The position numbers and the translations under genes are program-made. Below are positions 34,701-62,604 of a stretch of 64,000 nt of DNA, in pieces. Source of the stretch: a virus (lineage: Duplodnaviria; Heunggongvirae; Uroviricota; Caudoviricetes). The notes under the pieces were generated by a model, which worked only from the letters and a program-made list of their open reading frames with translations, ran no database searches and was not told where the DNA came from. The first letter of the stretch is position 1. Every line of letters starts with the position of its first letter. Location of the stretch: IMG/VR virus record IMGVR_UViG_3300038412_000041; one strand, written 5' to 3'.

Positions 34701-34928
34701 ATGTTTTTACATAGCGGCTATTTTTATTTGTGCTGGATTCCTTATCGGCAAAATAGCATAGGTGTATATATGCAACCCATAATCAGTATGTTTATATCTC
34801 TTTTTCTGCTAACATGCGGCCTTTATCTTCTTAATCAAGAAGATACTAAAGAGAAGGATTTCTCACAATACTTGGTCTACATATTCTTTGTAGAGTCTTT
34901 TCTATATCTTGGACTTGCTTTTTGGTAA
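34701..34928 (+). CDS. small transmembrane protein
   Basis: 75 aa with two hydrophobic helices. Confidence 0.3.
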   Translation: MFLHSGYFYLCWIPYRQNSIGVYMQPIISMFISLFLLTCGLYLLNQEDTKEKDFSQYLVYIFFVESFLYLGLAFW

Positions 34929-34936
34929 GGTGCTCA

Positions 34937-47113: not shown

Positions 47114-48040
47114 ATGTCACTAAAACTTGTAAAAGTAATCAGCCATTTCAAATCCTCTTTTGACAAGGTTACGACCGACTATATTGAGACGCCTGTCTCT
47201 TTATTGTCAAAAGAGGATTCTCTGGATTATGCTAAACGCGCCAGAGAACTCCACCCTTCTTCTTTTCCAGTATGCCCTTTACGTATGGCATACGAGCGTC
47301 TCACAGTAGAAGACGATCCAATAGTCTATCGCAATTTCACCCAAGATTACTATCTGAATGTAGGAACCACAGCACACTTGTTGTTGCAGTACTGGTTCGG
47401 TAGAACTGGTTATCTTGTAGGTAACTGGACTTGTGCAAACTGCAAAACAGCTTACCGTTTTTCTGTCAAACCAAAGAAGTGTAGGAGTTGCAAGCACACG
47501 GAATTTCTATACCATGAGTTGGGAGGTAAGACTGACAACATTAGATGGCACACTGATGGAGTCTACAAAATAGGTGATTACTATTATGTTTTGGACTTCA
47601 AAACAACAGGTGATTACCAGTTAGATATGCACCGTAAGAATAAGAACGTTTTTCCTTACTTCAACAATGTCTTGCAGTTAGAAGGTTATTTTCCTCTGTT
47701 AGAGCAAAAGTACAATGTAAAGCTATCAGGTTGGCTTCTGGCATATATATCAAGATCACGTCCGATGCCTCCATACGGAATAGAAGTGATAGGAAAGACT
47801 GTAACTGATTCCGATAGAGACTTGATGGAAGAACGACTTGAAAGATTTAAAAAAGCTCATACTCTATCATTAAAGGTAGAAGAAAATCCTAGACTAGTAT
47901 TGAAAAAAGCAATGGCTACAAAGCTATGCGAGTCAAGACAAATGTATGAAGAGAAAATAAAAGGGTATAACCCATGTCCACTGTCAGACGTGTGTTTTAA
48001 AAAGTCTGCTCTAATCAAACAGTTAAAGGAAGTGATATGA
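47114..48040 (+). CDS. PD-(D/E)xK-like nuclease candidate with zinc-ribbon insert
   Basis: GTTAHLLLQYWF, then CANC..CRSC, then HTDGVYKIGDYYYVLDFKTTG (D / D-x-K arrangement). Weak. Confidence 0.35.
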   Translation: MSLKLVKVISHFKSSFDKVTTDYIETPVSLLSKEDSLDYAKRARELHPSSFPVCPLRMAYERLTVEDDPIVYRNFTQDYYLNVGTTAHLLLQYWFGRTGYLVGNWTCANCKTAYRFSVKPKKCRSCKHTEFLYHELGGKTDNIRWHTDGVYKIGDYYYVLDFKTTGDYQLDMHRKNKNVFPYFNNVLQLEGYFPLLEQKYNVKLSGWLLAYISRSRPMPPYGIEVIGKTVTDSDRDLMEERLERFKKAHTLSLKVEENPRLVLKKAMATKLCESRQMYEEKIKGYNPCPLSDVCFKKSALIKQLKEVI

Positions 48041-49017
48041 AAATAGAAACTGATGACTATGTGATACTAAAAATCGAGAAGAGCAAAAGCTTGGCGCAAA
48101 TTGAGAAGGTTAGCGGTGACAAGATTACTGCTACTCTTGAACAGCGGCGTTACGAAAGACCCATCACTGAAGAGTTCTTTGTTAAGGACATTATAGCCGT
48201 ACTCGGCGCTAGACCACAACCAGGTAGTGTCCACGGTGTTACCGTAGAACCTTATTGGAAAACAGTAGACCACAGTATGTGGGGGCCTGTAAGACTGTTT
48301 CATAGAATGAAGAAAGAAACGTGGAAGTCAATAAATGAAGGTCTCACATTAGCTTATAGACTATTGGAAAAGAAAGGTCTAACCGGATTCATTGAAGAAG
48401 GAAACTTGACAATCTCCATAAAGCCTAGTAGAGGCAAAAATCTTGGCATGTATTACTACCGTCAAAAAGGTGACCAATCTAATGACGAGTTAATGTTTAG
48501 AGTTCAAGAGACGCAACACAAGAGTCTATACAAAGAAGTGATACTTCATGAAGCAGGACATGGTATTTATTACCGTCTGTTTACGGCAGCACAACGTGCA
48601 TCATGGATCAAAGCTCACGTTCGTTACTGTTCGTTTATCAAACATGAAGCAGCTATCGTACAAACCTTAGGTAAGAAGTTTATCAAGAGTGGTATGCATC
48701 CTTTGTCCTTTGCTTCTGAGCTAGATGAACAGGAAGAAGCAATATTTCACTTAGCTTACAAAGAAATGTGTAGCAATTATCGGTTGAAGAAGAAACACGT
48801 TGAGGAGATAATTAGTAGTGGTAAGATTGAAGAGTTGCAAATGATGTGGCCTAAAACTGATATCCGCTATCCAGAGTTTGAAGAGGTAATTGGCAGTTAT
48901 GCATCCACAAACGCCGAAGAATTGTTCGCCGAGGCTTTTAGACTATACATGACTGGCGTTAAACTTCCAAAGTTTTTGAATGCTCCTATGGAAAGACACT
49001 TGGCATCAATCAAATAG
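48037..49017 (+). CDS. HExxH zinc-metallopeptidase-like protein (ImmA/IrrE-like?)
   Basis: VILHEAGHGIYY is a minimal zincin motif. 326 aa. Confidence 0.4.
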   Translation: MKIETDDYVILKIEKSKSLAQIEKVSGDKITATLEQRRYERPITEEFFVKDIIAVLGARPQPGSVHGVTVEPYWKTVDHSMWGPVRLFHRMKKETWKSINEGLTLAYRLLEKKGLTGFIEEGNLTISIKPSRGKNLGMYYYRQKGDQSNDELMFRVQETQHKSLYKEVILHEAGHGIYYRLFTAAQRASWIKAHVRYCSFIKHEAAIVQTLGKKFIKSGMHPLSFASELDEQEEAIFHLAYKEMCSNYRLKKKHVEEIISSGKIEELQMMWPKTDIRYPEFEEVIGSYASTNAEELFAEAFRLYMTGVKLPKFLNAPMERHLASIK

Positions 49018-49026
49018 GGTAATGAA

Positions 49027-50289
49027 ATGCAAGACATAAAAGAAATGATAGACCACCAACTATCGAACCAGCTTACTGTTGGCTTAGTAGGAGCCTCAGT
49101 AGTAGGCTGGTTTCTTTATACACTACGTTCTATACCTGATAAATTAAAAACACTGATTCTCTACTTCTTCACTGTAGAGGCTAACATTAGGAATGACAAC
49201 TCCATATTTGAAGATTTGGAGCGTTGGCTGGATAAGCAAATTGTAAGCTCTAGAGCTAGGACTCTTAGAATAACAACGCAATGGAACGATGACCACCCTG
49301 ATGCAAGCACCAAGGAAATGATGATTTCTGCTGGTTTAGGTTTCCACTATTTTAGATATAGGAAATCTTTTGTTTTTATGTGGCGCAAATCTGAAGGTGC
49401 GGGAGTAGATACAAAAGGTCCTGTCTATGAGTATATCGAATTAAGGACTATAGGTAGAAAGCAAGACGTGCTACGCGCAATATTTAATGAAGTAGACGAG
49501 AACAACAAACATGCTGATACGGTTGGTGTAAGGATATGGAATGGGTACTGGCGTTTGATTAACAGAAAATCCAAACGCAGTATGGACTCTGTATTCATTC
49601 CTATAGAGCAGAAAGAAAGAATAACCAAAGACCTAGAAAACTTCCTTAGTTCTGACACCAAAAAGTTTTATCTAAGTCGCGGCATTCCGTATCGTCGTGG
49701 TTATCTATTTAAAGGTATACCTGGTAGCGGTAAGACTACACTGATTCATGCTTTAGCAAGTCATTACAATCTGTCCCTCTATATTGTCAATCTAAGCACT
49801 ATAAAAGATGACAACGAACTCTTGACGTGTTTGTCAGGAGCTCCTATAAAGAGTTTGGTTCTTTTAGAAGATATAGATCGTCTAGGTATAGCACACGCTA
49901 ATTCTAAATTAGAAGTAGGTGCTAATAGTCAAGTAGAAGGTGAAGAAAGAAGTGTAGTTACACTGCAAGGATTATTGAATGCTATAGATGGTATAGCATC
50001 TAGTGAAGGCCGCATACTTGTAATGACTTCAAATCATCCTGAATTGCTTGATCCTGCTCTGATTCGTGATGGACGTATTGATCTACATGAGGACTTCAAT
50101 GCTATACACTTCAATGAAGCTCTGGATATGGTGTCTTATTTCTATGCAATACCTAAACAAAATATTGTAAATGCTTTACAGATGGTTTATAGAAAACCTA
50201 TACCAGCAAGCAAACTTCAAGGCATACTACTTAAAACCAAAAACATAGAAGATTCACTCAAGGCATTGGAGAATTTGAATGGCAATTAA
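49027..50289 (+). CDS. BCS1-like AAA+ ATPase with N-terminal transmembrane segment
   Basis: Walker A GIPGSGKTT, Walker B LVLLEDIDR and sensor region ILVMTSNHPELLDPALIRDGRIDL. N-terminal hydrophobic helix LTVGLVGASVVGWFLYTL. Confidence 0.65.
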   Translation: MQDIKEMIDHQLSNQLTVGLVGASVVGWFLYTLRSIPDKLKTLILYFFTVEANIRNDNSIFEDLERWLDKQIVSSRARTLRITTQWNDDHPDASTKEMMISAGLGFHYFRYRKSFVFMWRKSEGAGVDTKGPVYEYIELRTIGRKQDVLRAIFNEVDENNKHADTVGVRIWNGYWRLINRKSKRSMDSVFIPIEQKERITKDLENFLSSDTKKFYLSRGIPYRRGYLFKGIPGSGKTTLIHALASHYNLSLYIVNLSTIKDDNELLTCLSGAPIKSLVLLEDIDRLGIAHANSKLEVGANSQVEGEERSVVTLQGLLNAIDGIASSEGRILVMTSNHPELLDPALIRDGRIDLHEDFNAIHFNEALDMVSYFYAIPKQNIVNALQMVYRKPIPASKLQGILLKTKNIEDSLKALENLNGN

Positions 50290-50899
50290 AAGCATAACCG
50301 ATTTGAGAGCAGCAACTTATAATCCTAGAGAAATCACGACCACGCAACTCAAACAACTAAGGGACTCTATCGAGACCTTTGGAGATTTATCAGGTATCGT
50401 TGTAAACGTTGCTAAAGGTAAAAACACTTTAGTTAGCGGCCATCAACGACTGAAAACTTTGAAGGGTAAGAAAACTAGAATCGTAAAGACTGAATGCAAA
50501 AAGGACCAGCACGGAACGGTTGCTACTGGTTGGATAGAAGTCCTAAATGGAAAGACAGTCACCAAGATTCCATATAGAGAGGTAGACTGGCTGGATAAGC
50601 AAATGGAAATGGCTGCGAACGTTAACGCCAACAGTGCTGGAGGTGAATTTGATAAGGTTAAGCTCGGTTCTGTTTTAGCAAAACTCCAAGCAGGAAAGTT
50701 CAAGATTGAAAGTTTGGCCTTAGATAAGTTTTCAATGATGAAAGCCATGATTGACTTTAGGAAGTCAAACGTACAGTCCAAGGAAGAAGTTGTAAATACA
50801 AAGAGTAAAGACTCTAAGAAAACCAGTTTTGATAAGGTTGATCCTAGAAGTGAAAAGTTTGAACACGTTTGCCCTCGTTGCAAGTTTAAATGGTCTTGA
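50279..50899 (+). CDS. ParB/Srx-fold nuclease-like domain protein with C-terminal zinc ribbon
   Basis: YNPREITTTQLKQLRDSIETFGDLSGIVVN...LVSGHQRLKTL resembles the ParB N-terminal motif. C-terminal CPRCKFKW. Confidence 0.5.
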   Translation: MAIKSITDLRAATYNPREITTTQLKQLRDSIETFGDLSGIVVNVAKGKNTLVSGHQRLKTLKGKKTRIVKTECKKDQHGTVATGWIEVLNGKTVTKIPYREVDWLDKQMEMAANVNANSAGGEFDKVKLGSVLAKLQAGKFKIESLALDKFSMMKAMIDFRKSNVQSKEEVVNTKSKDSKKTSFDKVDPRSEKFEHVCPRCKFKWS

Positions 50900-50915
50900 T
50901 AAGGAGAATTGATAA

Positions 50916-51473
50916 ATGACTACAGTTTGTGCTGGTTGGGTAAACAACAAACCTATAATTGCAGCAGACAAGCTTACGACTACTGATAGGTGCTACTCGG
51001 TATCAAAGCTAATTAAAGGAGATTCTTACATTATTGGAGTTTCAGGAAGTCTTGCTTGCAAACAGGCAATAGAAGCTACATTATCTGATGACCCATCCAT
51101 AGATTTTTCATCAACCTCAACAACACTGGACAGTCTTAGTTGGCTCCATAGAACATTGATTGAGGAGTATGGTTTTTCTTCAGTAGTTAATGAAGAAGCA
51201 CACCGAGTTTTGTTGCCTGTAGAAATGATAATTCTGACAGACGATAGGATTTACGAAGTACATGCAGACTTAGCAATTCTTGAAGTGCAAAACAATCTGG
51301 CACAAAGCATATATCCGTTTACTGCTATTGGTTCTGGCAAGGCATACGCGTTAGGAAATCTACATAGAAACACGTATGAGTTAAAGGAAGTTGATCTAGT
51401 TAACGCCGTGTTAGCTGCTTCTGCCTTTGACATTGGAACAGCATTTGATGTAGAAGTGAGTAAGCTAACTTGA
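50916..51473 (+). CDS. HslV/proteasome-beta-like Ntn-hydrolase
   Basis: N-terminal MTTVCAGW (Thr2 nucleophile position), IIGVSGSLAC and FTAIGSGKAYALGNL, compared with HslV MTTIVSV..., ...AGFAGGTADA and AIGSGGPYA. Confidence 0.5.
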   Translation: MTTVCAGWVNNKPIIAADKLTTTDRCYSVSKLIKGDSYIIGVSGSLACKQAIEATLSDDPSIDFSSTSTTLDSLSWLHRTLIEEYGFSSVVNEEAHRVLLPVEMIILTDDRIYEVHADLAILEVQNNLAQSIYPFTAIGSGKAYALGNLHRNTYELKEVDLVNAVLAASAFDIGTAFDVEVSKLT

Positions 51474-52513
51474 AACTTCCAAAAGGTGCATCTGCAAAGA
51501 TTATAGAGTTTAAGCAGCCTTCAAGAGTACCATCAATCACTGAAATTAATGATAAGCCAAAACGTTGGAAAGCTCTATCATTCTTCAGTGGTTGTGGTGG
51601 AGGTAGCACCGGCCTTAAATGGGCCGGTTTTGACGTTTTGTACGCCAATGAGTTTGTACCTAATGCTGCCAAGAATTATAAGCTAAATTCTCCTAGTACT
51701 ATCGTGGACACTAGAGACATTCGTAAGGTAACCGGAAAGTCTATTCTGAAAAAGCTTGGTCTTAAAAGAGGACAAGTTGATTTAATAGAAGCTTCCCCAC
51801 CTTGTAAAGGTTTCTCAAGCACTAGAGCTTCCAAGAAAGGGTCAGATTTTGGTGTCATAGTAAAGTATAGTGAAGGGATTAAGCAGCGCATTGATGATCT
51901 ATTCTTTGAGTTCCTTAGAATCGCTGACGAAATTAAGCCAAAGGTCTTCGTTATGGAGAATGTTGATGGTCTGGCTAACCATGTTAATAAAGGAATCCTT
52001 GTAGAGATTCTGGACAACGTTGAGAGAATAGGTTACACAGTAGAAGCTAGAATCTTGGATTTGTCTCTGCTTGGTTGGCCTCAACGAAGAAAGCGCATGA
52101 TCTTTGTCTGTGTTAGAAACGACTTGGTTAAGAAAGGATTCAAACCAGTGTTTCCAAAACCAGCGGAAAAAGAAGCAACTGTTGCTTCAATGTTTCCTTA
52201 TATAGAAAGAATTAGGATTGGGAGCGGTTTTGTTAGTCCTGACAGAGCAAGTCCTTGTATAACAGCTAGTGATCATAGTATTGGTTTCACTGCTCGTTTT
52301 AGCTGTGGTGGTTGGATAGAAACTCGTAATGGTTATCGTCGTTACACGATACAGGAACTAAAGCGCATGTTTGGTTTTCCTGATGATTTTCAGTTAAAAG
52401 GTTCATTCATTCAGCAGTGGGAAAGATTAGGAAGATCACACGCTCCGCCACAGATGTACAAGATAGCGAAAACTATTGAAAAACATATCCTTCTACCTTG
52501 GGCTAATAGATGA
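51470..52513 (+). CDS. DNA (cytosine-5)-methyltransferase-family enzyme with atypical cofactor-pocket residues
   Basis: Motif I FFSGCGGGSTGLKWAGF, IV SPPCKGFS (PCK instead of PCQ), VI FVMENVDGL, VIII GWPQRRKRMIFV, IX RRYTIQELKRMFGFPDDF, X LGRSHAPP (GR instead of GN). TTG start overlapping the upstream TGA. Confidence 0.8.
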   Translation: MKLPKGASAKIIEFKQPSRVPSITEINDKPKRWKALSFFSGCGGGSTGLKWAGFDVLYANEFVPNAAKNYKLNSPSTIVDTRDIRKVTGKSILKKLGLKRGQVDLIEASPPCKGFSSTRASKKGSDFGVIVKYSEGIKQRIDDLFFEFLRIADEIKPKVFVMENVDGLANHVNKGILVEILDNVERIGYTVEARILDLSLLGWPQRRKRMIFVCVRNDLVKKGFKPVFPKPAEKEATVASMFPYIERIRIGSGFVSPDRASPCITASDHSIGFTARFSCGGWIETRNGYRRYTIQELKRMFGFPDDFQLKGSFIQQWERLGRSHAPPQMYKIAKTIEKHILLPWANR

Positions 52514-54321
52514 AGTACTCGACGCAAACTTTTATAAAAGAAGCGAAGAAGGTTCATGGAAATAAATATAGTTACAAGAAAACCAGGTTTGTAGGTTTAC
52601 ATACTAATATACTTGTAACTTGTAAAATTCATGGTGCTTGGTACCCAAGAGCAGTTAGACACCTTTCAGGTATGCAATGTCCGAAATGTGTAGGTAAATA
52701 TAAAGATACTGCATCATTTATTAAGGAACTTTCTAACGTACATGGTGTTGGGAAATTTGATTGGTCTAAGGTAGAGTATACAAAAGCAGAAAATAAAATA
52801 GAGGTTCTCTGCAAAACACATGGCATGTGGAAACCTACGGCAGCAAGTCATCTTAGAGGCAGTGGTTGTCCAAAATGCTCAATAGAAAAACAGAGAAAAC
52901 CAATACACATATTTTTAAAAGAAGCCTTAAAAGTACATGGTGTTAAGTATGACTACTCCAAGGTTGAGTACACGGCGAATAAAGATTTGATACTTATAGG
53001 TTGTAATATTCACGGTTTTTGGAAACAATACGTTTCTAGTCATTTGCGAGGACATGGTTGTCCAAAATGTTCAGCAATACGTGTAGGCAAAAAGAAACGT
53101 ATAACACATGATGAATTTCTAACAAAAGCCCTAAAAGTTCATGGAACAAAATTCAACTTAGACAAGGTAAAATATAAAACTTCAAATACGCATGTTATTA
53201 TAACCTGCAATAAACATGGAGACTGGCGTTGCACACCTGCAAATTATTTAAGAGGTTATGGTTGTCCTACATGTGCAAGAGTATTTGATAGCCGAGATTC
53301 ATGGATTAAGAAGGCTAGAGAGTTGCACGGTTCAACTTTTAGTTACCAATCTTTTGTTTTTAAGGATATTCAACAATCTATAAAGATTAGATGCAATAAA
53401 CATGGCTATGTGTTTACACAAAATCTTTACAAGCATTTACGTTACAAGTTTCCTTGTGCTAAATGTAGAACAGAATACTTAAATTCTATAGGCATAGGAA
53501 CTTCTTTACTTGAGAACATTGTAAGGAAATGGGTATCTAAATATACAACGGTTGTATCCAACACAAAAGAAATAATAAAGCCCTACGAGTTAGATATTTG
53601 GTGTCCTAAAGAAAAGATAGCTATAGAGATAAATGGTCTTTACTGGCATTCAGAATTGTACAAGTCTAAAGATTACCACAAAACAAAGTACGAACTGTGT
53701 AGAGATAGAGGTATACGTTTATTACAGTTTTGGGAAGATGCCGTACATAAAAGACCTAAAGCAGTGAAAAGCTTGATACTTAGTGCGTTAGGAAAAAATT
53801 TGAAAATAGGTGCAAGAGAGTGCCAAATTGTAAATGTATCTAGTGCAGAAACCAAAGAGTTTCTTGATGCTTATCATATACAAGGAAATGTGAATGGTAA
53901 AATACGTTTAGGTCTTACATACAAAGATAAACTTGTTTGTCTTGCTGTGTTTGGCGCTAATAGATTTGGAGAAGGTTTAGAGCTTTTACGTTTTGTTAGT
54001 AAGTATGGATATTTTGTTAGCGGTGGTTTTGCCAGACTCTTGTCAAAAATAGATATAAGACCTATAGTTACATACTGCAATCTAGACATATCTGTAGGTA
54101 CAATGTACGAAAATGCAGGTTTTGTACTTGATGGAAAAACTAAAGTAGGCTATCGCTGGTTCGGTCATGGCAAAATATTATCTAGATATCAATGTCAACC
54201 AACTAGATTAAAGTCTTTACTTCCTAAATACAACCAGTCATTGACAGAAGTTCAAAATATGCACAATGCAGGGTATGTTCGGTTATTCGATTCAGGAAAC
54301 TTGCGCTACATATTAAAATAG
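52510..54321 (+). CDS. modular endonuclease: five tandem ~65 aa zinc-ribbon repeat modules plus a DUF559/Vsr-like restriction-endonuclease-fold domain (homing endonuclease candidate)
   Basis: Five repeats of F(I/L)KEA.KVHG.KY.Y.KV.Y...C..HG.W....HLRG.GCPKC. Then ELDIWCPKEKIAIEINGLYWHS...KYELCRDRGIRLLQFWEDAV, matching the DUF559 pattern AIE.DG..H...D..R...L...G..vlRF. Confidence 0.55.
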   Translation: MKYSTQTFIKEAKKVHGNKYSYKKTRFVGLHTNILVTCKIHGAWYPRAVRHLSGMQCPKCVGKYKDTASFIKELSNVHGVGKFDWSKVEYTKAENKIEVLCKTHGMWKPTAASHLRGSGCPKCSIEKQRKPIHIFLKEALKVHGVKYDYSKVEYTANKDLILIGCNIHGFWKQYVSSHLRGHGCPKCSAIRVGKKKRITHDEFLTKALKVHGTKFNLDKVKYKTSNTHVIITCNKHGDWRCTPANYLRGYGCPTCARVFDSRDSWIKKARELHGSTFSYQSFVFKDIQQSIKIRCNKHGYVFTQNLYKHLRYKFPCAKCRTEYLNSIGIGTSLLENIVRKWVSKYTTVVSNTKEIIKPYELDIWCPKEKIAIEINGLYWHSELYKSKDYHKTKYELCRDRGIRLLQFWEDAVHKRPKAVKSLILSALGKNLKIGARECQIVNVSSAETKEFLDAYHIQGNVNGKIRLGLTYKDKLVCLAVFGANRFGEGLELLRFVSKYGYFVSGGFARLLSKIDIRPIVTYCNLDISVGTMYENAGFVLDGKTKVGYRWFGHGKILSRYQCQPTRLKSLLPKYNQSLTEVQNMHNAGYVRLFDSGNLRYILK

Positions 54322-54335
54322 TCAGGAGTCTACAA

Positions 54336-55127
54336 ATGAAAGAAGCAAAAGCAGGAACAAACGCTGAATTTCACCACAAGCATGAACAAGAACACCACCA
54401 GCAACAGCAGCAACTAGGTGATACACATGTTGCTAAAGAAGGTGAGAAGTGGGAGTTTGACCAAGAGGTTACCAAAGTATTTCCTGATATGATTTCTTCT
54501 TCTATCCCTGGCTATGATTCTATGCGTAGCTTAACTACTAGATTGGCTCAAAAGTTTTTAAAGAGTGGAGCTTGTCTTGATTTAGGTTCTTCTCTAGGTG
54601 GTGCTGTATCAGAACTGATTGATAGTAATGAACATGCTCGTTTTGTATTGACCGAGATTAGCCAACCTATGCTAGAGGCACTTTCTAAAAGATACAAAGA
54701 CGAGAAGAATGTGGACGTGTGTGAGGTTGATTTAAGAAATGGTATTGTGCCAGTCCTACGCAATAGTCTCTATAATGTAGTGTTGTGTAACCTGACTCTA
54801 ATGTTTGTGCCAGTAGAGTACAGGTTCAAGCTAGTTAGAAGCATATATAGGTCAATGGAGGCTGGTGGGATTTTTCTATTGGTAGAAAAGACACTTGGTA
54901 ATTATCCTGAATCACAAGAGTTGCTTGTCGAGCAGTACCTTGATCTAAAGAGATTACGTGGTTATACGGAAGAGCAGATTCTCAGAAAACGTCTTGCTTT
55001 AGAAGGTGTACTGGTTCCAGTGACTCAATCGTGGAATGAAGACATGTTAAAGTCAGCAGGCTTCAAGATTATTGACTGCTACTGGAGAGCATTACAATTT
55101 ACAGGTACGTTTGCTATAAAGGAATAA
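54336..55127 (+). CDS. cmoA: carboxy-S-adenosyl-L-methionine synthase (CmoA) homologue
   Basis: Full-length colinearity with bacterial CmoA: FDQEVTKVFPDMISSSIPGYDSM / ACLDLGSSLGGA / VVLCNLTLMFVP / GGIFLLVEK / LKRLRGYTEEQILRKRLALEGV / KSAGF. Confidence 0.7.
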   Translation: MKEAKAGTNAEFHHKHEQEHHQQQQQLGDTHVAKEGEKWEFDQEVTKVFPDMISSSIPGYDSMRSLTTRLAQKFLKSGACLDLGSSLGGAVSELIDSNEHARFVLTEISQPMLEALSKRYKDEKNVDVCEVDLRNGIVPVLRNSLYNVVLCNLTLMFVPVEYRFKLVRSIYRSMEAGGIFLLVEKTLGNYPESQELLVEQYLDLKRLRGYTEEQILRKRLALEGVLVPVTQSWNEDMLKSAGFKIIDCYWRALQFTGTFAIKE

Positions 55128-55129
55128 TC

Positions 55130-56275
55130 ATGAAAAAGACGTTCAAAGAGGAAGCCAAACTTTTGCTAGGTTATCTTATGCAGACTAGTCTGCACCATGA
55201 TAAAATCTTCTCCACCCAAAACCTGATAAATTTTCTTGAACGTGTTATTAATGAAGTGGCACCTGTTCATAAAGCACATCTTCGATCTATCTGGTTGAAC
55301 TACTGCACTCAAGGTAATCACAATCAGTATATGCACTTTGAAGGTTTTTGCAATGCCCTCAATAACATACTTGCAAACATTGAGAAAACCCCTTTGTATA
55401 CGTACCCACCAACATCCAACAACGATGTTGAGCTAGAAGCTTTAGTATCCAAGATAGATAAGGCGGAAGCCGAACAATCCATAGAACACAAGTACGAAAC
55501 GCTTAGGAAAGCAGTACATGATCTGTATTACTCAGCTAACTGGCAAGCAGACCGACCTGTTAATGAAGGTAAACTGTGGGAAGCCGTTCGTGATGCTGCT
55601 GGATTCTCAGTTGGAGAATCACCTAAAAAGCAAGTTGTTGATTCAGAACTGTTTATGAGTATTGAACCTATAAAATTGACAGCCGAACATATTTTCACAT
55701 CTACTATACAACCAAGTCTAAAAGTAAAAGAGGACTACTCCATTACTTTCTTCAATGACTATGGTATTGTTGGAAAGTTTGATTTTAATGGGCCTAAACT
55801 GAAATTTGAAGGTGACTTAGACGAGTCTGCGGAATTGTTTGTCAATCACCTATGTATGCTTTTTGAAAAACGCTTAGATACTGAACGTAAAAAGATGGAG
55901 CAGGTTACTAATGCAAACGTAGAGAAACTGAAGGACTTGCTGCGTCGCTTGCGTGATTGGGATATGCTGGATACTACTTCAGATGGTATATACTGGAGAA
56001 AGGAAATCAAAAGTGCTTTGGCAGATGAGTCTACGCTACCTTCACAAAAACCTACAATCTGGTGGAGTGGTTTAGGTGATGACCCTGAAAACTTTATGTC
56101 AGACAGCACACGTAAAAACCACATTCTGTATGGATCACATACATACAAAGAATTTCCAATACCTTTATTTACTTTTAACCCAAACTGCCAGACATGTAGA
56201 ACAAAGATTGTTCCAACGGATGATCCTTTAGCCAGAAAAGCTTGGGAAAGTTATCTTAATTGGATATCTGGTTGA
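55130..56275 (+). CDS. hypothetical protein
   Basis: 381 aa ORF. The start overlaps the CmoA-homologue stop region. Confidence 0.4.
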   Translation: MKKTFKEEAKLLLGYLMQTSLHHDKIFSTQNLINFLERVINEVAPVHKAHLRSIWLNYCTQGNHNQYMHFEGFCNALNNILANIEKTPLYTYPPTSNNDVELEALVSKIDKAEAEQSIEHKYETLRKAVHDLYYSANWQADRPVNEGKLWEAVRDAAGFSVGESPKKQVVDSELFMSIEPIKLTAEHIFTSTIQPSLKVKEDYSITFFNDYGIVGKFDFNGPKLKFEGDLDESAELFVNHLCMLFEKRLDTERKKMEQVTNANVEKLKDLLRRLRDWDMLDTTSDGIYWRKEIKSALADESTLPSQKPTIWWSGLGDDPENFMSDSTRKNHILYGSHTYKEFPIPLFTFNPNCQTCRTKIVPTDDPLARKAWESYLNWISG

Positions 56276-56290
56276 TTATAAGGAGTAATC

Positions 56291-56599
56291 ATGGATTACA
56301 TAAGTGAAGCAAAAAGGTTAGTAGCTCATTATTCTTTAGTACCTAATGCTGAAGCTAAAGATGTGACCGTATTACTTACGCACTTAATACAGGTTTTAGA
56401 ACCTATATTGAGTAAAGAAAAGTTCTGCTTTTGCAATAACGATATATCACTACAGATGGTTAGTGGTGGTGCAGCCACCGAAGGTTTGCACGGACGAGTC
56501 ACCTTGAAAGTCAAAGGTGTTTATGTTAACTATGTTAAAGTACAGCATCAATCTACAGACAAAGTTGATGCTATCATTGCAAATCATTTTAGGAATTAG
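56291..56599 (+). CDS. hypothetical protein
   Basis: 102 aa ORF. Confidence 0.35.
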   Translation: MDYISEAKRLVAHYSLVPNAEAKDVTVLLTHLIQVLEPILSKEKFCFCNNDISLQMVSGGAATEGLHGRVTLKVKGVYVNYVKVQHQSTDKVDAIIANHFRN

Positions 56600-56601
56600 T
56601 A

Positions 56602-56799
56602 ATGGAAAAACTACTCATAACCTTTATTCTCGCCATGTTATGCCTTATTATTTACTTAGTGTTCTTTAAGCTCATTAATGTGATACTTGGTTGTAACACA
56701 AGATGCAAACACGATTATGAGGTAGTATTTGAGGATAATTGCAAGAGAGTAGAAAGCTGTAAAAAGTGTGGTAACTCAACCATATATGGACAAAAGTGA
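56602..56799 (+). CDS. small transmembrane protein
   Basis: 65 aa with an N-terminal helix and a C-terminal CxxC. Confidence 0.3.
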   Translation: MEKLLITFILAMLCLIIYLVFFKLINVILGCNTRCKHDYEVVFEDNCKRVESCKKCGNSTIYGQK

Positions 56800-57052
56800 A
56801 ATGCTAGAAAAATCACCTATTAAAGACACAATAGATAAACTGGATGTAATACAACCACAGGTAGTCTCTCTTCAGAGAGAGGCAAAGCGCGGCAAATGGT
56901 TGATTAGTAAGATTTATAGCTCTCCTGTTTTTTCTATAGCAGAGAAAAAAGAAACAGGCAGTATAGCACACTCTATAATGTTCTATGGAAAAGCAGGTTT
57001 GTCAGTAGAAGAAGCAATAGACGAGTTAATGCGTAAAGAAGGTGTGTTATGA
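56768..57052 (+). CDS. hypothetical protein
   Basis: 94 aa ORF. Confidence 0.3.
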   Translation: MVTQPYMDKSEMLEKSPIKDTIDKLDVIQPQVVSLQREAKRGKWLISKIYSSPVFSIAEKKETGSIAHSIMFYGKAGLSVEEAIDELMRKEGVL

Positions 57053-57456
57053 GCAACCCGTATAGAATGCTGCTAAAAAAGTCTCAAGCACTCTTGGTAC
57101 TTGAAAGGAATCTAACAGAAGACGAACGTAAAGAAAACGAATGGTTGCTAACAGTGACTTTCAAAGGCATAGAAATGATTGTTGGCAAAGGTGACGTTAA
57201 CACCATGTTCTATCAACTTGGTGAAGGTAAAAGAGCAATCAACTACCCAGATGAGGTCTTAACTCTTTTAGAAAAGCTTGCAAAACGGAAGTATGTTTTG
57301 TATAGGGCTAACGATAAACTGTTTGTCAATGTTAAACGTGCATTTGCTTTTGCAAAGTCTGGAAGAATATACGGAATATTAGAAGATGGCAAAGAGAAAG
57401 CAGCTTACAAATGCAAGCCTACTCTAAAAGGAGGGTTGGAATGGGAGAAAATATAA
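57049..57456 (+). CDS. hypothetical protein
   Basis: 135 aa ORF. Confidence 0.35.
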   Translation: MSNPYRMLLKKSQALLVLERNLTEDERKENEWLLTVTFKGIEMIVGKGDVNTMFYQLGEGKRAINYPDEVLTLLEKLAKRKYVLYRANDKLFVNVKRAFAFAKSGRIYGILEDGKEKAAYKCKPTLKGGLEWEKI

Positions 57457-57662
57457 AGCCTATAGTAAGATACAATGCTGATGAAAACTTGTCATCAATT
57501 GTTGTAGGTGAACGCGCCGCTGTAATAGCGGTTGACCACCCTAATTTTAAAAGTTACTCTTTTGTAAGAACCTCAAAAGTTTTAAAAGTCAATGAAGAGA
57601 CAGGAGAGTTTGAGACAGTAAATTCAATCTATACTTTGGATAAGGGGTCTAAAAATGATTGA
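57411..57662 (+). CDS. hypothetical protein
   Basis: 83 aa ORF. Confidence 0.3.
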   Translation: MQAYSKRRVGMGENIKPIVRYNADENLSSIVVGERAAVIAVDHPNFKSYSFVRTSKVLKVNEETGEFETVNSIYTLDKGSKND

Positions 57663-58461
57663 CAAATTACGCATAGCCTTTAGCGGGTCTGGCTTCTTGG
57701 CTCCTATATTTGCTGGATTTTCCTTTTATCTGCTAGAGAGCAATGTTACAATAGTGGAGGTTGCTGGAACTAGTGGAGGCTCCATTATGTCTGCTCTTCT
57801 GGCATCAGGCAAAACCAGCAGTGAAATTAAACAAACCGCTCTCGGAGATATTCCACGAGGTGTACTTGATTGGCAACCAAGTGTTCTATTCAAGTATGGT
57901 ATCAATGGAGGCCAAGTATTGCAAAACTGGCTAGACTCTGTTCTAGGAGATTGTACGTTCAATGATGCTGTTATGCCTATTACTATTATGGCTACAGACA
58001 TTGATAATGGTTGCTCCTTCCGCTTCAGTAAAGATACAACGCCTAACATAAGATTAGCAGATGCGTGTAGGGCATCAGCAAGTGTTCCATTTATTTGGAC
58101 ACCTGCAATTGTTGCTAATAAAAAGCTTGTAGATGGAGGCATGTGCTGCAATATTCCTGTAGATCAATTGGTGATAGATTCAGTACCTAGAGTCGGAGTA
58201 GAAGTTATTGATGGAACACCTTCTGGCTCTACTGACAAGTTTGCCGATTATCTGAAGCAGTGTTTGTCTACTCTTTTAGGCTCAAATGAGAATAATCTAA
58301 TTGCTTGGGCTAAACAGACAGGAGCAACCATTGTTCCTGTAGATGCCAACCCTTATGGATTTTTGGACCCTGAACTTCCTGCATTGGCAAAGCTTTCGTT
58401 ATTTGATCGCGGTTACAATGCTGCAAGGAATTACTACAGTAAAGCAAACCAAAATGGCTAA
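57655..58461 (+). CDS. patatin-like phospholipase
   Basis: Oxyanion loop AFSGSGFLAP, serine elbow AGTSGGS (GxSxG) and catalytic-Asp DGG (LVDGGMCCN). Confidence 0.65.
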   Translation: MIDKLRIAFSGSGFLAPIFAGFSFYLLESNVTIVEVAGTSGGSIMSALLASGKTSSEIKQTALGDIPRGVLDWQPSVLFKYGINGGQVLQNWLDSVLGDCTFNDAVMPITIMATDIDNGCSFRFSKDTTPNIRLADACRASASVPFIWTPAIVANKKLVDGGMCCNIPVDQLVIDSVPRVGVEVIDGTPSGSTDKFADYLKQCLSTLLGSNENNLIAWAKQTGATIVPVDANPYGFLDPELPALAKLSLFDRGYNAARNYYSKANQNG

Positions 58462-59356
58462 ACGTAACATACCGAGGTCCGCTTTTAAACTACATGAAAG
58501 AAGAGCCTCTTTAATTCATGACCACATGGTTGAATATATGAAGTCAATACCGTGTGAGGAAATAGCAGTCCTGTTAAGTTCAGGTGTTGATAGTCATCTT
58601 TTATTGTTTGCTATTCTTGATGCAGGTAAGACTCCTATTTGTTACTCTGCTACATTGGATGATAGAGAGTCTAAAGATTTTACCTGTGCCAGAAACACTG
58701 CTGATCTTTTAGGATTAAAGTTTGTGCCAGTCATTCTTCCTACTGACGTTAAGCACATCTACAATTTTGTGAAGGAAGAGATATATGGGCCTATAAATCC
58801 AGGTATAATCGTAACTAAGGCGCATGCAGAATGTCTTTGGCCTGTAGCAAGAATCTTTGACAAGATAAAAGAGAAAGCCGTTGTGATAGGGTTTGGAGGA
58901 GATATCTGGTTTTCAACTTTACGCTCCCAAAAGAAGGAATGGTTAGCTGGAACCTATAAAGAATACGTAGAAACCCAACGTCTTCTATATACAGGAAAGA
59001 CAGTCAAGTGTCCTCGCAGAATGGTGCATGATAAATATCTTGCCTTGTATAAGAAAGGATTGAAGCTTTACGAGCCATACTACACAAAACAAATGTTCAA
59101 GATCATGGATGGGATGGACCCAATAAAAGAAGGTTGGAATCCTATTCAGAAAGCTCCTTTCCGTTTGGCCTTCTGGGAATATTTCGAGTTGTGTAAAGAT
59201 AATGTTTACATGCATGTGAACCTGCAGAAAGGCGATAGCGGTATAAGTGAACACTTTTTAAAGCTATTGGCTACTGATTTGAATACAGGTAACTACAAAT
59301 CTACATTAGGCATATATAACGATCAACTACGAAAATGGAGGGAGGAAAATGAATAA
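58454..59356 (+). CDS. PP-loop ATP pyrophosphatase, asparagine-synthetase-like amidotransferase domain (synthetase domain only)
   Basis: EIAVLLSSGVDSHLL (SGGxDS-like PP-loop with one substitution) and VIGFGGDIWFS (AsnB-like SGEGADE..GGY region). Start at ATG 58454 is uncertain (ORF-track start 58343 overlaps the patatin gene). Confidence 0.4.
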   Translation: MAKRNIPRSAFKLHERRASLIHDHMVEYMKSIPCEEIAVLLSSGVDSHLLLFAILDAGKTPICYSATLDDRESKDFTCARNTADLLGLKFVPVILPTDVKHIYNFVKEEIYGPINPGIIVTKAHAECLWPVARIFDKIKEKAVVIGFGGDIWFSTLRSQKKEWLAGTYKEYVETQRLLYTGKTVKCPRRMVHDKYLALYKKGLKLYEPYYTKQMFKIMDGMDPIKEGWNPIQKAPFRLAFWEYFELCKDNVYMHVNLQKGDSGISEHFLKLLATDLNTGNYKSTLGIYNDQLRKWREENE

Positions 59357-59405
59357 ACCTATACCTCAAATTTACCTGTAGGTTGTAGGTTATGGTAGGT
59401 GAAAT

Positions 59406-59425
59406 CTGAAAAGTGTGTATACTAA
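59406..59425 (+). promoter_or_regulatory. TGAAAAGT...TACTAAT motif, copy related to those at 60106 and 61154
   Basis: TGAAAAGTGTGTATACTAAT upstream of the small basic protein gene. Confidence 0.3.
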
Positions 59426-59434
59426 TTTAATGTC

Positions 59435-59452
59435 ACGCAGAACGTTCTGCGT
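59435..59452 (+). other. perfect 18-bp palindrome ACGCAGAACGTTCTGCGT (operator or hairpin)
   Basis: Self-complementary. 29 nt upstream of the ATG at 59481, followed by TCTTATC. Confidence 0.45.
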
Positions 59453-59480
59453 TCTTATCAACTAAATAAGGATCCTTAAC

Positions 59481-59618
59481 ATGAATACATTTGCTCGTAT
59501 GAACAATGCCGGTGGCGAAGCCAAGACTGCAAAGCGTGGCGCTGCCAAGAAGCCTGCTAAGAAGGCTCCTGCTGCCAAGAAGGCTGCAAAGAAGCCTGCT
59601 CGCAAGTTTGCTCGCTAA
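59481..59618 (+). CDS. small lysine/alanine-rich basic protein (histone H1 / AlgP-tail-like DNA-binding protein candidate)
   Basis: 45 aa, MNTFARMNNAGGEAKTAKRGAAKKPAKKAPAAKKAAKKPARKFAR. Below the ORF-track cutoff. Flanked by the palindrome upstream and a strong terminator downstream. Confidence 0.45.
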   Translation: MNTFARMNNAGGEAKTAKRGAAKKPAKKAPAAKKAAKKPARKFAR

Positions 59619-59649
59619 TAAAACATAGCAGTAAGCAAAGCAGCATAAG

Positions 59650-59680
59650 AAGGGGGAGTCTAAAAGGCTTCCCCTTTTTC
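59650..59680 (+). terminator. rho-independent terminator
   Basis: AAGGGGGAG / CTTCCCCTT 9-bp stem (one G-U pair), 9-nt loop, then TTTTTC tail. Confidence 0.6.
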
Positions 59681-59694
59681 ACAGGAGAAACGCT

Positions 59695-60108
59695 ATGCTA
59701 AATATCTCACAGCTTTTGAAGAGTACGTTTCCTAATTTCAAGAAGTCTGCTGCTTACGTTGATCTAAACAAGATCAGAGTAGGTACTAACAAAGCAGGCT
59801 TTGCAAAAATTATGGCTACTGCTTCGTCTAAGGTAGACGCTAATGGAAAACGCAAGTCAGGTATTCAGCAACACGTGTGCGCTATAACTTCTCTTGATAA
59901 GAATAAAGGGTTTAAAGGTCCAGTTAAAACCAGTTGTGATTGCGAAGCCTTCGTCTACACATGCGAGGTTGCTTTGCACAATCAAGGTGCTGCTGATATT
60001 ATTTATTCAAATGGTGAAGCACCTGACGTAAAGAATCCAAGAATGATACCTACTCTGTGTAAACATTTGTATGCTTTGGCCCAACAAGTGAAGACGAGTG
60101 GTTATTGA
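59695..60108 (+). CDS. hypothetical protein with SWIM-like CxC...CxH motif
   Basis: SCDCEAF...TLCKHL. 137 aa. Ribosome-binding site AGGAGA. Confidence 0.4.
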   Translation: MLNISQLLKSTFPNFKKSAAYVDLNKIRVGTNKAGFAKIMATASSKVDANGKRKSGIQQHVCAITSLDKNKGFKGPVKTSCDCEAFVYTCEVALHNQGAADIIYSNGEAPDVKNPRMIPTLCKHLYALAQQVKTSGY

Positions 60109-60141
60109 AAAGTTGTAAATGTCTGATATACTCTAACTAAT
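60106..60141 (+). promoter_or_regulatory. conserved intergenic motif TGAAAAGTTGTAAATG(N15)TACT, copy A
   Basis: The first 16 nt are identical to 61154..61169. Begins at the stop codon of the upstream gene. Confidence 0.35.
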
Positions 60142-60160
60142 AACAAGAGGCAGACCTAGC

Positions 60161-61153: not shown

Positions 61154-61189
61154 TGAAAAGTTGTAAATGCATTGTGTACTAAGTAATCT
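61154..61189 (+). promoter_or_regulatory. conserved intergenic motif TGAAAAGTTGTAAATG(N15)TACT, copy B
   Basis: Starts immediately after the sigma-like gene stop, upstream of the single-stranded-DNA-binding gene. Confidence 0.35.
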
Positions 61190-61203
61190 GTCTATGTCAG
61201 ACA

Positions 61204-62592: not shown

Positions 62593-62604
62593 TAAAGGTG
62601 CTTT

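What the first reader, a model, noticed from the sequence alone, without database searches (positions are those of the whole stretch)
51470..55127. CmoA (carboxy-SAM synthase) homologue next to a C5-cytosine DNA methyltransferase with basic substitutions at PCQ and GN: candidate natural 5-carboxymethylcytosine DNA modification
Seen in sequence: the 54336..55127 product is colinear with bacterial CmoA over its whole length (FPDMI..S.PGY; LDLGSSLGG; CNLTLMF; GGIFLLVEK; KRLRGY.EEQI.RKRLALE; AGF), including the arginine in the ..KR..LE.. segment that in E. coli CmoA contacts the Cx-SAM carboxylate. Two genes upstream, 51470..52513 has the full C5-methyltransferase motif set (I FSGCGGG, VI ENV, VIII QRRKR, IX, X). 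However, the near-invariant Gln of motif IV is Lys (SPPCKGFS) and the Asn of the motif X GN dipeptide is Arg (LGRSHAPP). Established: CmoA makes carboxy-S-adenosylmethionine from SAM and prephenate. C5 DNA methyltransferases can transfer the carboxymethyl group of Cx-SAM to cytosine C5, and an engineered Asn-to-Lys change at the motif X Asn of M.MpeI switches preference to Cx-SAM. Inference: this phage may have evolved that solution naturally, a Cx-SAM supplier plus a methyltransferase whose cofactor pocket carries positive charges to accept a carboxylate. That would write 5-carboxymethyl-dC on its own DNA as an anti-restriction hypermodification. A homing-type endonuclease gene (52510..54321) appears inserted between the two partners. 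An alternative is that the CmoA homologue feeds host tRNA cmo5U synthesis.
Basis: partly seen in the sequence, partly recalled or inferred. Interest (0 to 1): 0.92.

Follow-up and report, generated by a model that had tools for sequence, protein, structure and literature searches.

The report
Phage carboxymethylcytosine DNA modification module

Summary
51470-52513 is a C5-cytosine methyltransferase homologue. Arg322 replaces the motif X Asn (M.HhaI N304) and Lys113 replaces the motif IV Gln (Q82). 54336-55127 is a full-length CmoA homologue that keeps Arg199 and Glu164. A homing-type endonuclease gene (52510-54321) lies between them.

Yang et al., Nat Commun 2025 (PMC12783734) showed that Synechococcus phage S-B43 uses CmoA (Cx-SAM synthase), CmoX (Cx-SAM-dependent DNA C5-carboxymethyltransferase) and CmoY (Asn-synthetase-like amide ligase). 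In CmoX the motif X Arg binds the carboxylate.

The window methyltransferase's best solved-structure match is SpCmoX itself (8YF3, E 2.6e-49), and every named Cx-SAM contact is conserved. The end product is therefore probably an amide of 5cxmC.

The nearest isolate is Pseudomonas jumbo phage PaBG. In close metagenomic relatives cmoX and cmoA are adjacent, so the endonuclease is an insertion.

Small additions here:
- Loss of Gln co-varies with gain of Arg in the 120 homologues tabulated.
- A conserved 135-aa protein of unknown fold sits between cmoA and cmoY.
- The amine substrate of this CmoY clade is unknown.

Verdict: new member of a known kind.

The parts
50279..50899 (+). ParB-like (ParBc) protein, a frequent companion of CmoX
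   Evidence: PHROG 620 'ParB-like partition protein' E 8.3e-28. Weak Pfam ParB_N match, E 0.0029. 40% identical to PaBG_00176, 'ParB-like nuclease', which lies immediately upstream of PaBG cmoX. Conserved at the same place in L003, L005 and L008. The paper reports ParBc proteins in 1,660 CmoX contigs, role unknown.
50916..51473 (+). HslV/proteasome-like protein directly upstream of cmoX; a conserved neighbour in close relatives, with no shown link to the pathway
   Evidence: PHROG 1040 'peptidase HslV family' E 2.3e-16. Homologues lie at the same position in L003 and L005 (31-34% identity), and the L005 gene carries Pfam Proteasome. Absent at this position in PaBG.
51470..52513 (+). CmoX: DNA cytosine C5-carboxymethyltransferase homologue (C5-MTase fold, SPPC-K, G-R)
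   Evidence: PF00145 E 9.3e-51. Best solved structure 8YF3 (SpCmoX) E 2.6e-49, against HhaI at 6e-21. F39, E61, F62, D83, S109-P-P-C112 and R322 correspond to SpCmoX F25, E47, F48, D69, S95-C98 and R350. 48% identical to PaBG_00177.
52510..54321 (+). Free-standing homing-type endonuclease inserted between cmoX and cmoA; a mobile element, not part of the pathway
   Evidence: PHROG 559 E 3.9e-114 and PHROG 3339 'homing endonuclease' E 3.1e-83. Pfam DUF4379, CapR and DUF723 zinc-finger modules plus a DUF559 (Vsr-like) core at residues 352-427. Five N-terminal repeats, each ending in a GCPxC-like motif, are visible in the translation. Absent from PaBG, L003/L004 and L005/L006, where cmoX and cmoA are 1-81 nt apart. 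Single copy in the window.
54336..55127 (+). CmoA: carboxy-S-adenosyl-L-methionine (Cx-SAM) synthase homologue
   Evidence: TIGR00740 E 1.9e-35, full length, 122.7 bits. The experimentally active SpCmoA scores 115.6 bits on the same model. 4GEK E 2.6e-30. E. coli Y39, D62, G64, S66, D117, N132, F137, E164 and R199 are conserved. 40% identical to PaBG_00178.
57049..57456 (+). p135: conserved small protein of unknown function found between cmoA and cmoY in this phage lineage; candidate accessory component
58454..59356 (+). CmoY homologue: single-domain Asn-synthetase-like, PP-loop, AMP-forming amide ligase. The mechanical ORF starts at 58343; ATG 58454 is the likely start.
   Evidence: Colinear with SpCmoY (25.6% identity) and PaBG_00180 'asparagine synthase' (38%), with PP-loop SSGVDS. 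All 26 phage records hit come from seven host genera that also appear in the CmoA hit list. Profile against PDB: QueC 9.8e-6, AsnB 7.4e-4 over the synthetase domain. AF2 pLDDT 93.9; Foldseek top hits are beta-lactam synthetase, carbapenam synthetase and AsnB (1CT9 TMq 0.71). No glutaminase domain.

Best explanation
The window carries a CmoA-CmoX-CmoY DNA hypermodification module of the kind characterised in Synechococcus phage S-B43.

Step 1 (inferred by homology): CmoA (54336-55127) converts SAM plus host prephenate into carboxy-SAM.

Step 2 (inferred by homology and conserved contact residues): CmoX (51470-52513) uses the normal C5-methyltransferase chemistry. Cys112 attacks C6 of a flipped-out cytosine. 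Because Arg322 replaces the motif X Asn and Gln is lost from motif IV (Lys113), the enzyme binds Cx-SAM and transfers a carboxymethyl group, not a methyl group. The product is 5-carboxymethylcytosine on double-stranded phage DNA after replication.

Step 3 (inferred; the amine is unknown): CmoY (58454-59356) adenylates that carboxylate with ATP and joins it to an amine. The amine is glycine in S-B43 but is undetermined for this clade. The product is an amide-hypermodified cytosine.

The purpose is protection of phage DNA from host restriction and other DNA-targeting defences.

The ParB-like protein (50279-50899) and the conserved 135-aa protein (57049-57456) travel with the module; their roles are unknown. 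The 603-aa endonuclease gene is a selfish insertion between cmoX and cmoA and plays no part in the chemistry.
For: Homology to the experimentally characterised enzymes:
- CmoX against 8YF3, E 2.6e-49.
- CmoA against SpCmoA, 29% identity, tblastn E about 1e-22. It scores higher on TIGR00740 than the active SpCmoA (122.7 against 115.6 bits).
- CmoY against SpCmoY, E 1e-6 in the 2.3-Gb phage collection, colinear over the full length, with an AsnB-type synthetase fold.

Residues:
- All SpCmoX residues named as Cx-SAM contacts are conserved, including the Arg that replaces HhaI N304.
- CmoA keeps Arg199 and Glu164.
- Q82 and N304 are the two residues that crowd the transferable group in M.HhaI (PMC3526304). 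In 119 of 120 homologues both are changed together.

Gene order:
- The order ParB-cmoX-cmoA-p135-cmoY is conserved in PaBG and in two metagenomic relatives.
- All ORFs are intact and co-oriented.

Experimental support in the homologous system (PMC12783734):
- Wild-type SpCmoX accepts only Cx-SAM, and the R350N mutant is inactive.
- 5gcxmC was found in virion DNA.
- 5cxmC blocks HhaI cleavage.
Against: - No chemistry was done on this phage.
- CmoX is only 35% identical to SpCmoX and CmoY only 26% identical to SpCmoY. The target sequence and the amine could therefore differ.
- CmoA falls below NCBIfam's curated equivalog cut-off (122.7 against 193.3 bits), as does the validated SpCmoA.
- Two of the 13 named E. 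coli CmoA contacts differ (D89E, N90I).
- cmoY is about 3.3 kb from cmoA here, separated by window-specific genes, so co-regulation is not shown.
- The role of Lys113 is untested.
Confidence: 0.85

Rival explanations
1. The methyltransferase is an ordinary SAM-dependent C5 DNA methyltransferase making 5mC. The CmoA homologue serves tRNA instead, raising Cx-SAM so that host CmoB can make cmo5U34 on host or phage tRNAs.
For: Bacterial CmoA works in tRNA cmo5U synthesis (PMC3663124). Databases annotate the phage homologues as 'tRNA methyltransferase'. PaBG carries tRNA-Thr(UGU) and tRNA-Ala(UGC) about 5 kb upstream of its module.
Against: - No tRNA gene in the 64-kb window.
- None of the 56 window ORFs scanned against Pfam, NCBIfam or PHROGs had a CmoB annotation. 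I did not search for CmoB directly.
- The Asn that C5 methyltransferases keep at motix X is Arg, and wild-type SpCmoX does not use SAM at all.
- cmoA is linked to an Arg-type MTase and an amide ligase across unrelated phages: PaBG, Erwinia and Dickeya jumbo phages, S-B43 and Moraxella Mcat8.
Confidence: 0.05
2. The module stops at 5-carboxymethylcytosine. The Asn-synthetase-like gene at 58454-59356 works on something else, for example a small-molecule or protein carboxylate.
For: It lies about 3.3 kb from cmoA, behind window-specific genes including a patatin-like phospholipase. It is only 26% identical to SpCmoY. About 60% of the CmoX contigs in the published survey lack a ligase (2,251 of 5,615).
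Against: In the closest relative (L003/L004) and in PaBG it lies two genes after cmoA, with only p135 between them. In L005 one further gene intervenes. In the isolate collection it is found only in host genera that also appear in the CmoA hit list. Its fold is that of carboxylate-adenylating amide synthetases. In S-B43 virions only the amide was detected, not free 5cxmC.
Confidence: 0.1

Closest known systems
CmoA/CmoX/CmoY 5cxmC to 5gcxmC pathway of Synechococcus phage S-B43 (Yang et al., Nat Commun 2025, PMC12783734; structure 8YF3)
   Same: The same three enzyme families are present. CmoX has SPPC plus the motif X Arg and all Cx-SAM contact residues. CmoA has Arg199 and Glu164. CmoY is single-domain with no glutaminase. 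ParBc accompanies the module, as in many contigs of the paper's survey.
   Different: - Identities are low: CmoX 35%, CmoA 29%, CmoY 26%.
- Gene order is cmoX-cmoA...cmoY here and cmoA-cmoY-cmoX in S-B43.
- Motif IV is PCK here and PCS in SpCmoX.
- The target-recognition region is shorter here, so GC specificity cannot be assumed.
- The amine is unknown.
- The host lineage is different: a PaBG-like large phage rather than a cyanomyovirus.
Pseudomonas jumbo phage PaBG (Baikalvirus) genes PaBG_00176-00180
   Same: Closest isolate. It has the same order, ParB-like, cytosine methylase, 'tRNA (cmo5U34)-methyltransferase', small hypothetical protein, asparagine synthase. Identities are 40%, 48%, 40%, 27% and 35%. 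It also has PCK and GR.
   Different: PaBG has no endonuclease between cmoX and cmoA, no HslV-like gene before cmoX, and no 55130-57052 block or patatin gene. None of the papers found or read here reports a chemical test of the PaBG module.
Engineered C5 methyltransferases: M.MpeI N374K (Cx-SAM user) and M.HhaI Q82A/Y254S/N304A (extended-cofactor user)
   Same: The same two pocket positions are altered, the motif X Asn and the motif IV Gln. A basic residue at the Asn position gives Cx-SAM use. Removing Gln82 lowers methyl transfer and makes room for larger groups (PMC3526304).
   Different: Those are laboratory mutants of SAM-dependent enzymes and retain some methyl transfer. The natural CmoX clade has Arg rather than Lys at motif X. 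In SpCmoX it is strictly Cx-SAM dependent.
Bacterial CmoA/CmoB tRNA cmo5U34 pathway
   Same: The same Cx-SAM synthase family and the same cofactor.
   Different: The acceptor enzyme is a DNA C5-methyltransferase homologue, not CmoB. The substrate is DNA cytosine, not tRNA ho5U.

Membership tests
CmoX (DNA cytosine C5-carboxymethyltransferase, Yang et al. 2025) | C5-cytosine methyltransferase domain with catalytic motifs I, IV (PC), VI (ENV), VIII (QxRxR) and X | tested here: met
   PF00145 E 9.3e-51. F39/G41, P111-C112, E163-N164-V165, R207/R209 and G321 align to the corresponding HhaI residues.
CmoX (DNA cytosine C5-carboxymethyltransferase, Yang et al. 2025) | 'SPPC' motif (SpCmoX S95-P96-P97-C98), used as a selection criterion in the paper | tested here: met
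   S109-P110-P111-C112.
CmoX (DNA cytosine C5-carboxymethyltransferase, Yang et al. 2025) | Arg at the position of SpCmoX R350 (HhaI N304), which binds the Cx-SAM carboxyl group | tested here: met
   R322. Placed there both by HMMER alignments to 8YF3 and HhaI and by MAFFT. 119 of 120 nearest homologues share it.
CmoX (DNA cytosine C5-carboxymethyltransferase, Yang et al. 2025) | Adenine and ribose contacts of Cx-SAM (SpCmoX F25, E47, F48, D69) | tested here: met
   F39, E61, F62 and D83.
CmoX (DNA cytosine C5-carboxymethyltransferase, Yang et al. 2025) | Phage-encoded CmoA in the neighbourhood | tested here: met
   cmoA lies 1.8 kb downstream, and is directly adjacent in PaBG, L003 and L005.
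CmoX (DNA cytosine C5-carboxymethyltransferase, Yang et al. 2025) | Transfers carboxymethyl from Cx-SAM and does not use SAM; GC target motif | not testable with these tools
   Needs an enzyme assay or nucleoside mass spectrometry. The target-recognition region differs in length from SpCmoX.
CmoA (carboxy-SAM synthase) | Score above the curated cut-off of the NCBIfam equivalog models TIGR00740 and NF011995 | tested here: not met
   122.7 bits against a cut-off of 193.3, and 105.1 against 285, although the match is full length at E 1.9e-35. Calibration: the experimentally active SpCmoA scores 115.6 and 102 on the same models, and PaBG scores 130.5. The cut-off therefore excludes the whole phage clade, including a proven member.
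CmoA (carboxy-SAM synthase) | Arg199 (E. coli numbering), salt bridge to the cofactor carboxylate; Glu164 | tested here: met
   Both are conserved in the alignment with E. coli CmoA. Their roles are taken from PMC3663124.
CmoA (carboxy-SAM synthase) | SAM-moiety contacts Y39, D62, G64, S66, D89, N90, D117, N132 and F137 | tested here: met
   Seven of the nine are identical. D89 is Glu and N90 is Ile; both changes are shared by PaBG, and SpCmoA has Glu and Leu at these positions.
CmoA (carboxy-SAM synthase) | Makes Cx-SAM from SAM and prephenate | not testable with these tools
   Needs an enzyme assay.
CmoY (5cxmC amide ligase, Asn-synthetase-like) | Asn synthetase B-type synthetase-domain fold with a PP-loop (SGGxDS) | tested here: met
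   PP-loop S42-S-G44-V-D46-S47, invariant in 34 homologues. Foldseek: beta-lactam synthetase 3.3e-8, AsnB 1CT9 TMq 0.71. Profile against PDB: AsnB 7.4e-4. Pfam Asn_synthase is only weak on the window protein itself (E 0.0019), but is recorded for many homologues.
CmoY (5cxmC amide ligase, Asn-synthetase-like) | Sequence homology to SpCmoY (A0A514ABJ0) | tested here: met
   tblastn E 1e-6 against the whole phage collection. 25.6% identity, colinear over 258 aligned positions. It would not join SpCmoY's cluster at the paper's network threshold of about 30% identity.
CmoY (5cxmC amide ligase, Asn-synthetase-like) | Glycine-carboxylate-binding pocket residues (amine specificity) | not testable with these tools
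   The residues appear only in figure images of the paper's supplement. No ligand docking is available.

The most novel reading that the evidence does not exclude
The PaBG-like subclade is marked by PCK-type CmoX, a CmoY only about 26% identical to the glycine ligase, and a conserved 135-aa protein of unrecognised fold between cmoA and cmoY. This subclade may attach an amine other than glycine, producing a cytosine hypermodification not yet described. p135 could act as a specificity or DNA-binding factor, and Lys113 as a second carboxylate contact.
Probability: 0.3. Interest if true: 0.55.

Novelty: new member of a known kind. Interest (0 to 1): 0.3.

Why it matters
It shows that the newly described carboxymethylcytosine pathway is present in an uncultured phage on a contig of about 190 kb, related to the Pseudomonas jumbo phage PaBG. 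This supports the published claim that the modification is widespread.

For anyone working with such phages or their DNA, it predicts resistance to cytosine-sensitive restriction enzymes. It also predicts possible trouble with bisulfite, enzymatic-conversion and nanopore base-calling.

Three questions remain open for this clade: the amine added by CmoY, the target sequence of CmoX, and the roles of the conserved 135-aa and ParB-like proteins. The paired change at the HhaI Q82 and N304 positions gives a simple two-residue signature for recognising carboxymethyltransferases in sequence data. It also matches the positions that protein engineers chose independently.

Tried and rejected
- Megablast of the 3.7-kb region against 50,697 phage records found nothing. 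The phage has no close cultured relative, and only protein-level searches were informative.
- A tail-fibre-like 670-aa protein (5168-7180) gave only partial domain hits and did not identify the lineage.
- An exact-sequence look-up of the window CmoX in the contig index failed. The sample of origin is therefore unknown beyond 'JGI contig of 189,810 bp'.
- I considered whether p135 could be a chorismate mutase supplying prephenate. The predicted mixed alpha/beta fold does not resemble an all-helical AroQ mutase (the AroQ comparison is from memory), and the fold search listed no chorismate mutase, so I dropped the idea.
- I considered whether the HslV-like protein could be an Ntn-type glutaminase feeding ammonia to CmoY. 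There is no evidence beyond adjacency and it is absent from PaBG, so it is left as an observation.
- The promoter and terminator scan of 49000-60500 gave fewer promoter-like sites than shuffled sequence and nothing interpretable.
- The supplement of the paper does not give the glycine-pocket residues in text, so the amine specificity of the window CmoY could not be classified.
- An ordinary thymidylate synthase at 40365-41324 was checked as a possible dC/dU hydroxymethylase. It passes the ThyA equivalog cut-off (TIGR03284), so there is no sign of a second base-modification route.

Full report
**Observation**

51470-52513 (347 aa, TTG start overlapping the stop of the upstream gene) is a C5-cytosine DNA methyltransferase homologue. 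It matches PF00145 at E 9.3e-51 and TIGR00675 at E 6.8e-45.

54336-55127 (263 aa) matches the two NCBIfam CmoA equivalog models end to end: TIGR00740 at E 1.9e-35 (model positions 6-239 of 239) and NF011995 at E 3.9e-30. The next family, BioC, is about thirty orders of magnitude weaker. Its best solved structures are the CmoA entries 4GEK, 1IM8 and 4IWN.

52510-54321 (603 aa) matches PHROG 559 'HNH endonuclease' (E 3.9e-114) and PHROG 3339 'homing endonuclease' (E 3.1e-83). It has five N-terminal treble-clef zinc-finger repeats and a DUF559 (Vsr-like) core.

The two substitutions read by eye are correct. In HMMER alignments to solved structures and in a MAFFT alignment, Lys113 sits on M.HhaI Gln82 (motif IV, PCQ) and Arg322 on M.HhaI Asn304 (motif X, GN). 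It agrees with the fragments printed.

**What it is**

[quoted passage not shown] It reports the following for Synechococcus phage S-B43:
- A phage CmoA makes Cx-SAM from SAM and prephenate.
- A C5-methyltransferase homologue, CmoX, transfers the carboxymethyl group to cytosine C5 at GC sites. It accepts Cx-SAM but not SAM.
- The 1.9 A structure 8YF3 shows Arg350, which replaces HhaI Asn304, contacting the carboxymethyl group. The R350N mutant is dead.
- An asparagine-synthetase-like ligase, CmoY, uses ATP to join glycine to the carboxylate.
- Virion DNA contains the glycine amide and no free 5cxmC.
- The paper's survey found 5,615 candidate CmoX sequences, defined by 'SPPC' plus Arg350. They were accompanied by 4,257 CmoA, 2,251 ligase and 1,660 ParBc genes.

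**Membership of the window genes**

*CmoX.* The window methyltransferase's best match among all solved structures is 8YF3 itself (E 2.6e-49, against 6e-21 for HhaI). Every residue the paper names as a Cx-SAM contact is conserved:

| SpCmoX | Window |
|---|---|
| F25 | F39 |
| E47 | E61 |
| F48 | F62 |
| D69 | D83 |
| S95-C98 | S109-C112 |
| R350 | R322 |

*CmoA.* The window protein keeps E. coli Tyr39, Asp62, Gly64, Ser66, Asp117, Asn132, Phe137, Glu164 and Arg199. Asp89 is Glu and Asn90 is Ile (residue roles from PMC3663124). It scores below NCBIfam's curated cut-off (122.7 against 193.3 bits). As a calibration, the experimentally active SpCmoA scores 115.6 bits on the same model and the PaBG protein 130.5. 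The cut-off is tuned to bacterial tRNA-pathway CmoA and excludes the whole phage clade.

- 50279-50899 is ParB-like (PHROG 620, E 8.3e-28).
- 58454-59356 is a CmoY homologue. The mechanical ORF starts at 58343 and overlaps the preceding gene, so ATG 58454 is the likely start.
- The CmoY homologue is colinear with SpCmoY (25.6% identity) and has an invariant PP-loop, SSGVDS.
- In the isolate collection it hits only 26 records. All come from seven host genera that also appear in the CmoA hit list.
- A profile of 34 homologues reaches QueC and the synthetase domain of AsnB in the PDB.
- A confident model (pLDDT 93.9) matches beta-lactam synthetase, carbapenam synthetase and AsnB (1CT9, TMq 0.71).
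- It lacks a glutaminase domain, like SpCmoY.

**Lineage and anatomy**

No cultured phage is close at the DNA level. The nearest isolate is Pseudomonas jumbo phage PaBG, whose genes 00176-00180 are ParB-like, cytosine methylase, 'tRNA (cmo5U34)-methyltransferase', a small hypothetical protein and asparagine synthase. Identities to the window proteins are 40, 48, 40, 27 and 35%.

The window protein is identical to a JGI metagenome protein from a 189,810-bp contig.

Two closer metagenomic relatives (CmoX 64% and 61% identical) have the order ParB, HslV-like, cmoX, cmoA, p135, (one gene), cmoY. In them cmoX and cmoA are 1-40 nt apart. Several window genes are therefore window-specific:
- the 603-aa endonuclease, which starts 4 nt inside the end of cmoX and ends 14 nt before cmoA;
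- the BCS1/AAA ATPase gene (49027-50289);
- the 55130-57052 block.

**A small addition: two positions change together**

I tabulated the two pocket positions in the 120 nearest homologues.
- 119 have Arg at the N304 position.
- None of those 119 has Gln at the Q82 position. They have Ala (67), Lys (42), Ser (7), Leu (2) or Arg (1).
- The single homologue with Asn at motif X has Gln at motif IV.

Lys is characteristic of the PaBG-like subclade that includes the window. SpCmoX has Ser.

Gln82 and Asn304 are the two conserved residues that Lukinavicius et al. identified as crowding the transferable group in M.HhaI. They mutated both to accept larger cofactors, and Q82A specifically lowered methyl transfer (PMC3526304).

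The general natural solution is therefore 'lose Gln, gain Arg'. A text search of Yang et al. found no mention of the Gln position.

**Mechanism**

This is stated by homology and was not shown for this phage.
1. CmoA makes Cx-SAM.
2. CmoX flips out a cytosine, and Cys112 adds to C6. The C5 carbanion takes the carboxymethyl group from Cx-SAM, which Arg322 holds in place.
3. CmoY adenylates the new carboxylate and joins it to an amine.

The amine cannot be assigned. The window CmoY is too far from SpCmoY to fall in its similarity cluster, and the pocket residues are given only in figure images. The target sequence also cannot be assigned, because the target-recognition region differs in length from SpCmoX.

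**Rivals**

*tRNA role for CmoA with an ordinary 5mC methyltransferase.* This is unlikely. There are no tRNA genes in the window. None of the 56 window ORFs scanned against Pfam, NCBIfam or PHROGs had a CmoB annotation; I did not search for CmoB directly. The Arg-type enzyme in S-B43 cannot use SAM. The gene trio also recurs in unrelated phages.

*The pathway stops at free 5cxmC.* This is possible but less likely, given the conserved linkage of cmoY.

**Conserved unknown: p135**

**Verdict**

This locus is a new, divergent member of a known system. It is of modest interest for the open questions about amine identity, target motif, Lys113 and p135.

Noticed in passing
L008 1486-3615 (Dickeya phage vB_DsoM_AD1, MH460463.1 29986-32115): The CmoX homologue of this jumbo phage is 709 aa. 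It appears to carry an intein inserted exactly at the catalytic cysteine: GSPP | CFTEDTI...VVHN | CKGFS. The same two-piece match is seen in Erwinia phages vB_Ea_2910A and pEa_SNUABM_33. Metagenomic homologue P0029 has Hint_2 and Intein_splicing Pfam domains. Together with the endonuclease in the window, this suggests cmoX is a hotspot for selfish elements.
   Followed up: partly
L007 2986-4693 (Moraxella phage Mcat8, KR093632.1): A small 40.7-kb phage of a human pathogen has a CmoX-type gene (SPPCS, MGRMV) annotated 'hypothetical protein'. It is followed directly by a short CmoA-like gene (TIGR00740 E 2.2e-17). The pathway is therefore not restricted to large phages.
   Followed up: partly
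window 50916-51473: An HslV/proteasome-like protein (PHROG 1040 E 2.3e-16; N-terminus MTT as in HslV) lies between the ParB-like gene and cmoX. It is conserved at that position in two metagenomic relatives but not in PaBG. Its function here is unknown.
   Followed up: partly
[not shown]
   Followed up: yes
window 57655-58461: A patatin-like phospholipase (PF01734 E 5.6e-25; weak NCBIfam hits to CBASS and anti-phage phospholipases) lies immediately upstream of cmoY and overlaps its long ORF.
   Followed up: no
window 49027-50289: A BCS1_N plus AAA ATPase (PF08740 E 1.4e-21, PF00004 E 4e-16) lies just upstream of the ParB-like gene. It is absent from the syntenic relatives L003 and L005.
   Followed up: no
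window 55130-57052: A block of one 381-aa ORF and three small ORFs lies between cmoA and p135. It has no family match and no counterpart in PaBG, L003 or L005, so it is a second insertion into the module.
   Followed up: partly
window 54336-54420: The window CmoA has an N-terminal extension of about 28 residues, rich in His and Gln (HHKHEQEHHQQQQQ), that is missing from the relatives. Either it is a low-complexity tail or the true start lies further downstream.
   Followed up: no
window 23649-46530 and 60161-63987: The surrounding genes are typical of a large-phage replication and nucleotide-metabolism region:
- primase (23649-24539)
- GT9 glycosyltransferase (26028-26786)
- SPFH/Band 7 protein (31560-32447)
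- NADAR (34922-35557)
- FkbM methyltransferase (35554-36342)
- histidine phosphatase (38184-38837)
- ThyA (40365-41324)
- class 3 lipase (41930-43165)
- a PD-(D/E)xK or Cas4-like nuclease (47114-48040)
- a RecA/UvsX-like protein (62605-63987)

There are no tRNA genes in the window.
   Followed up: partly
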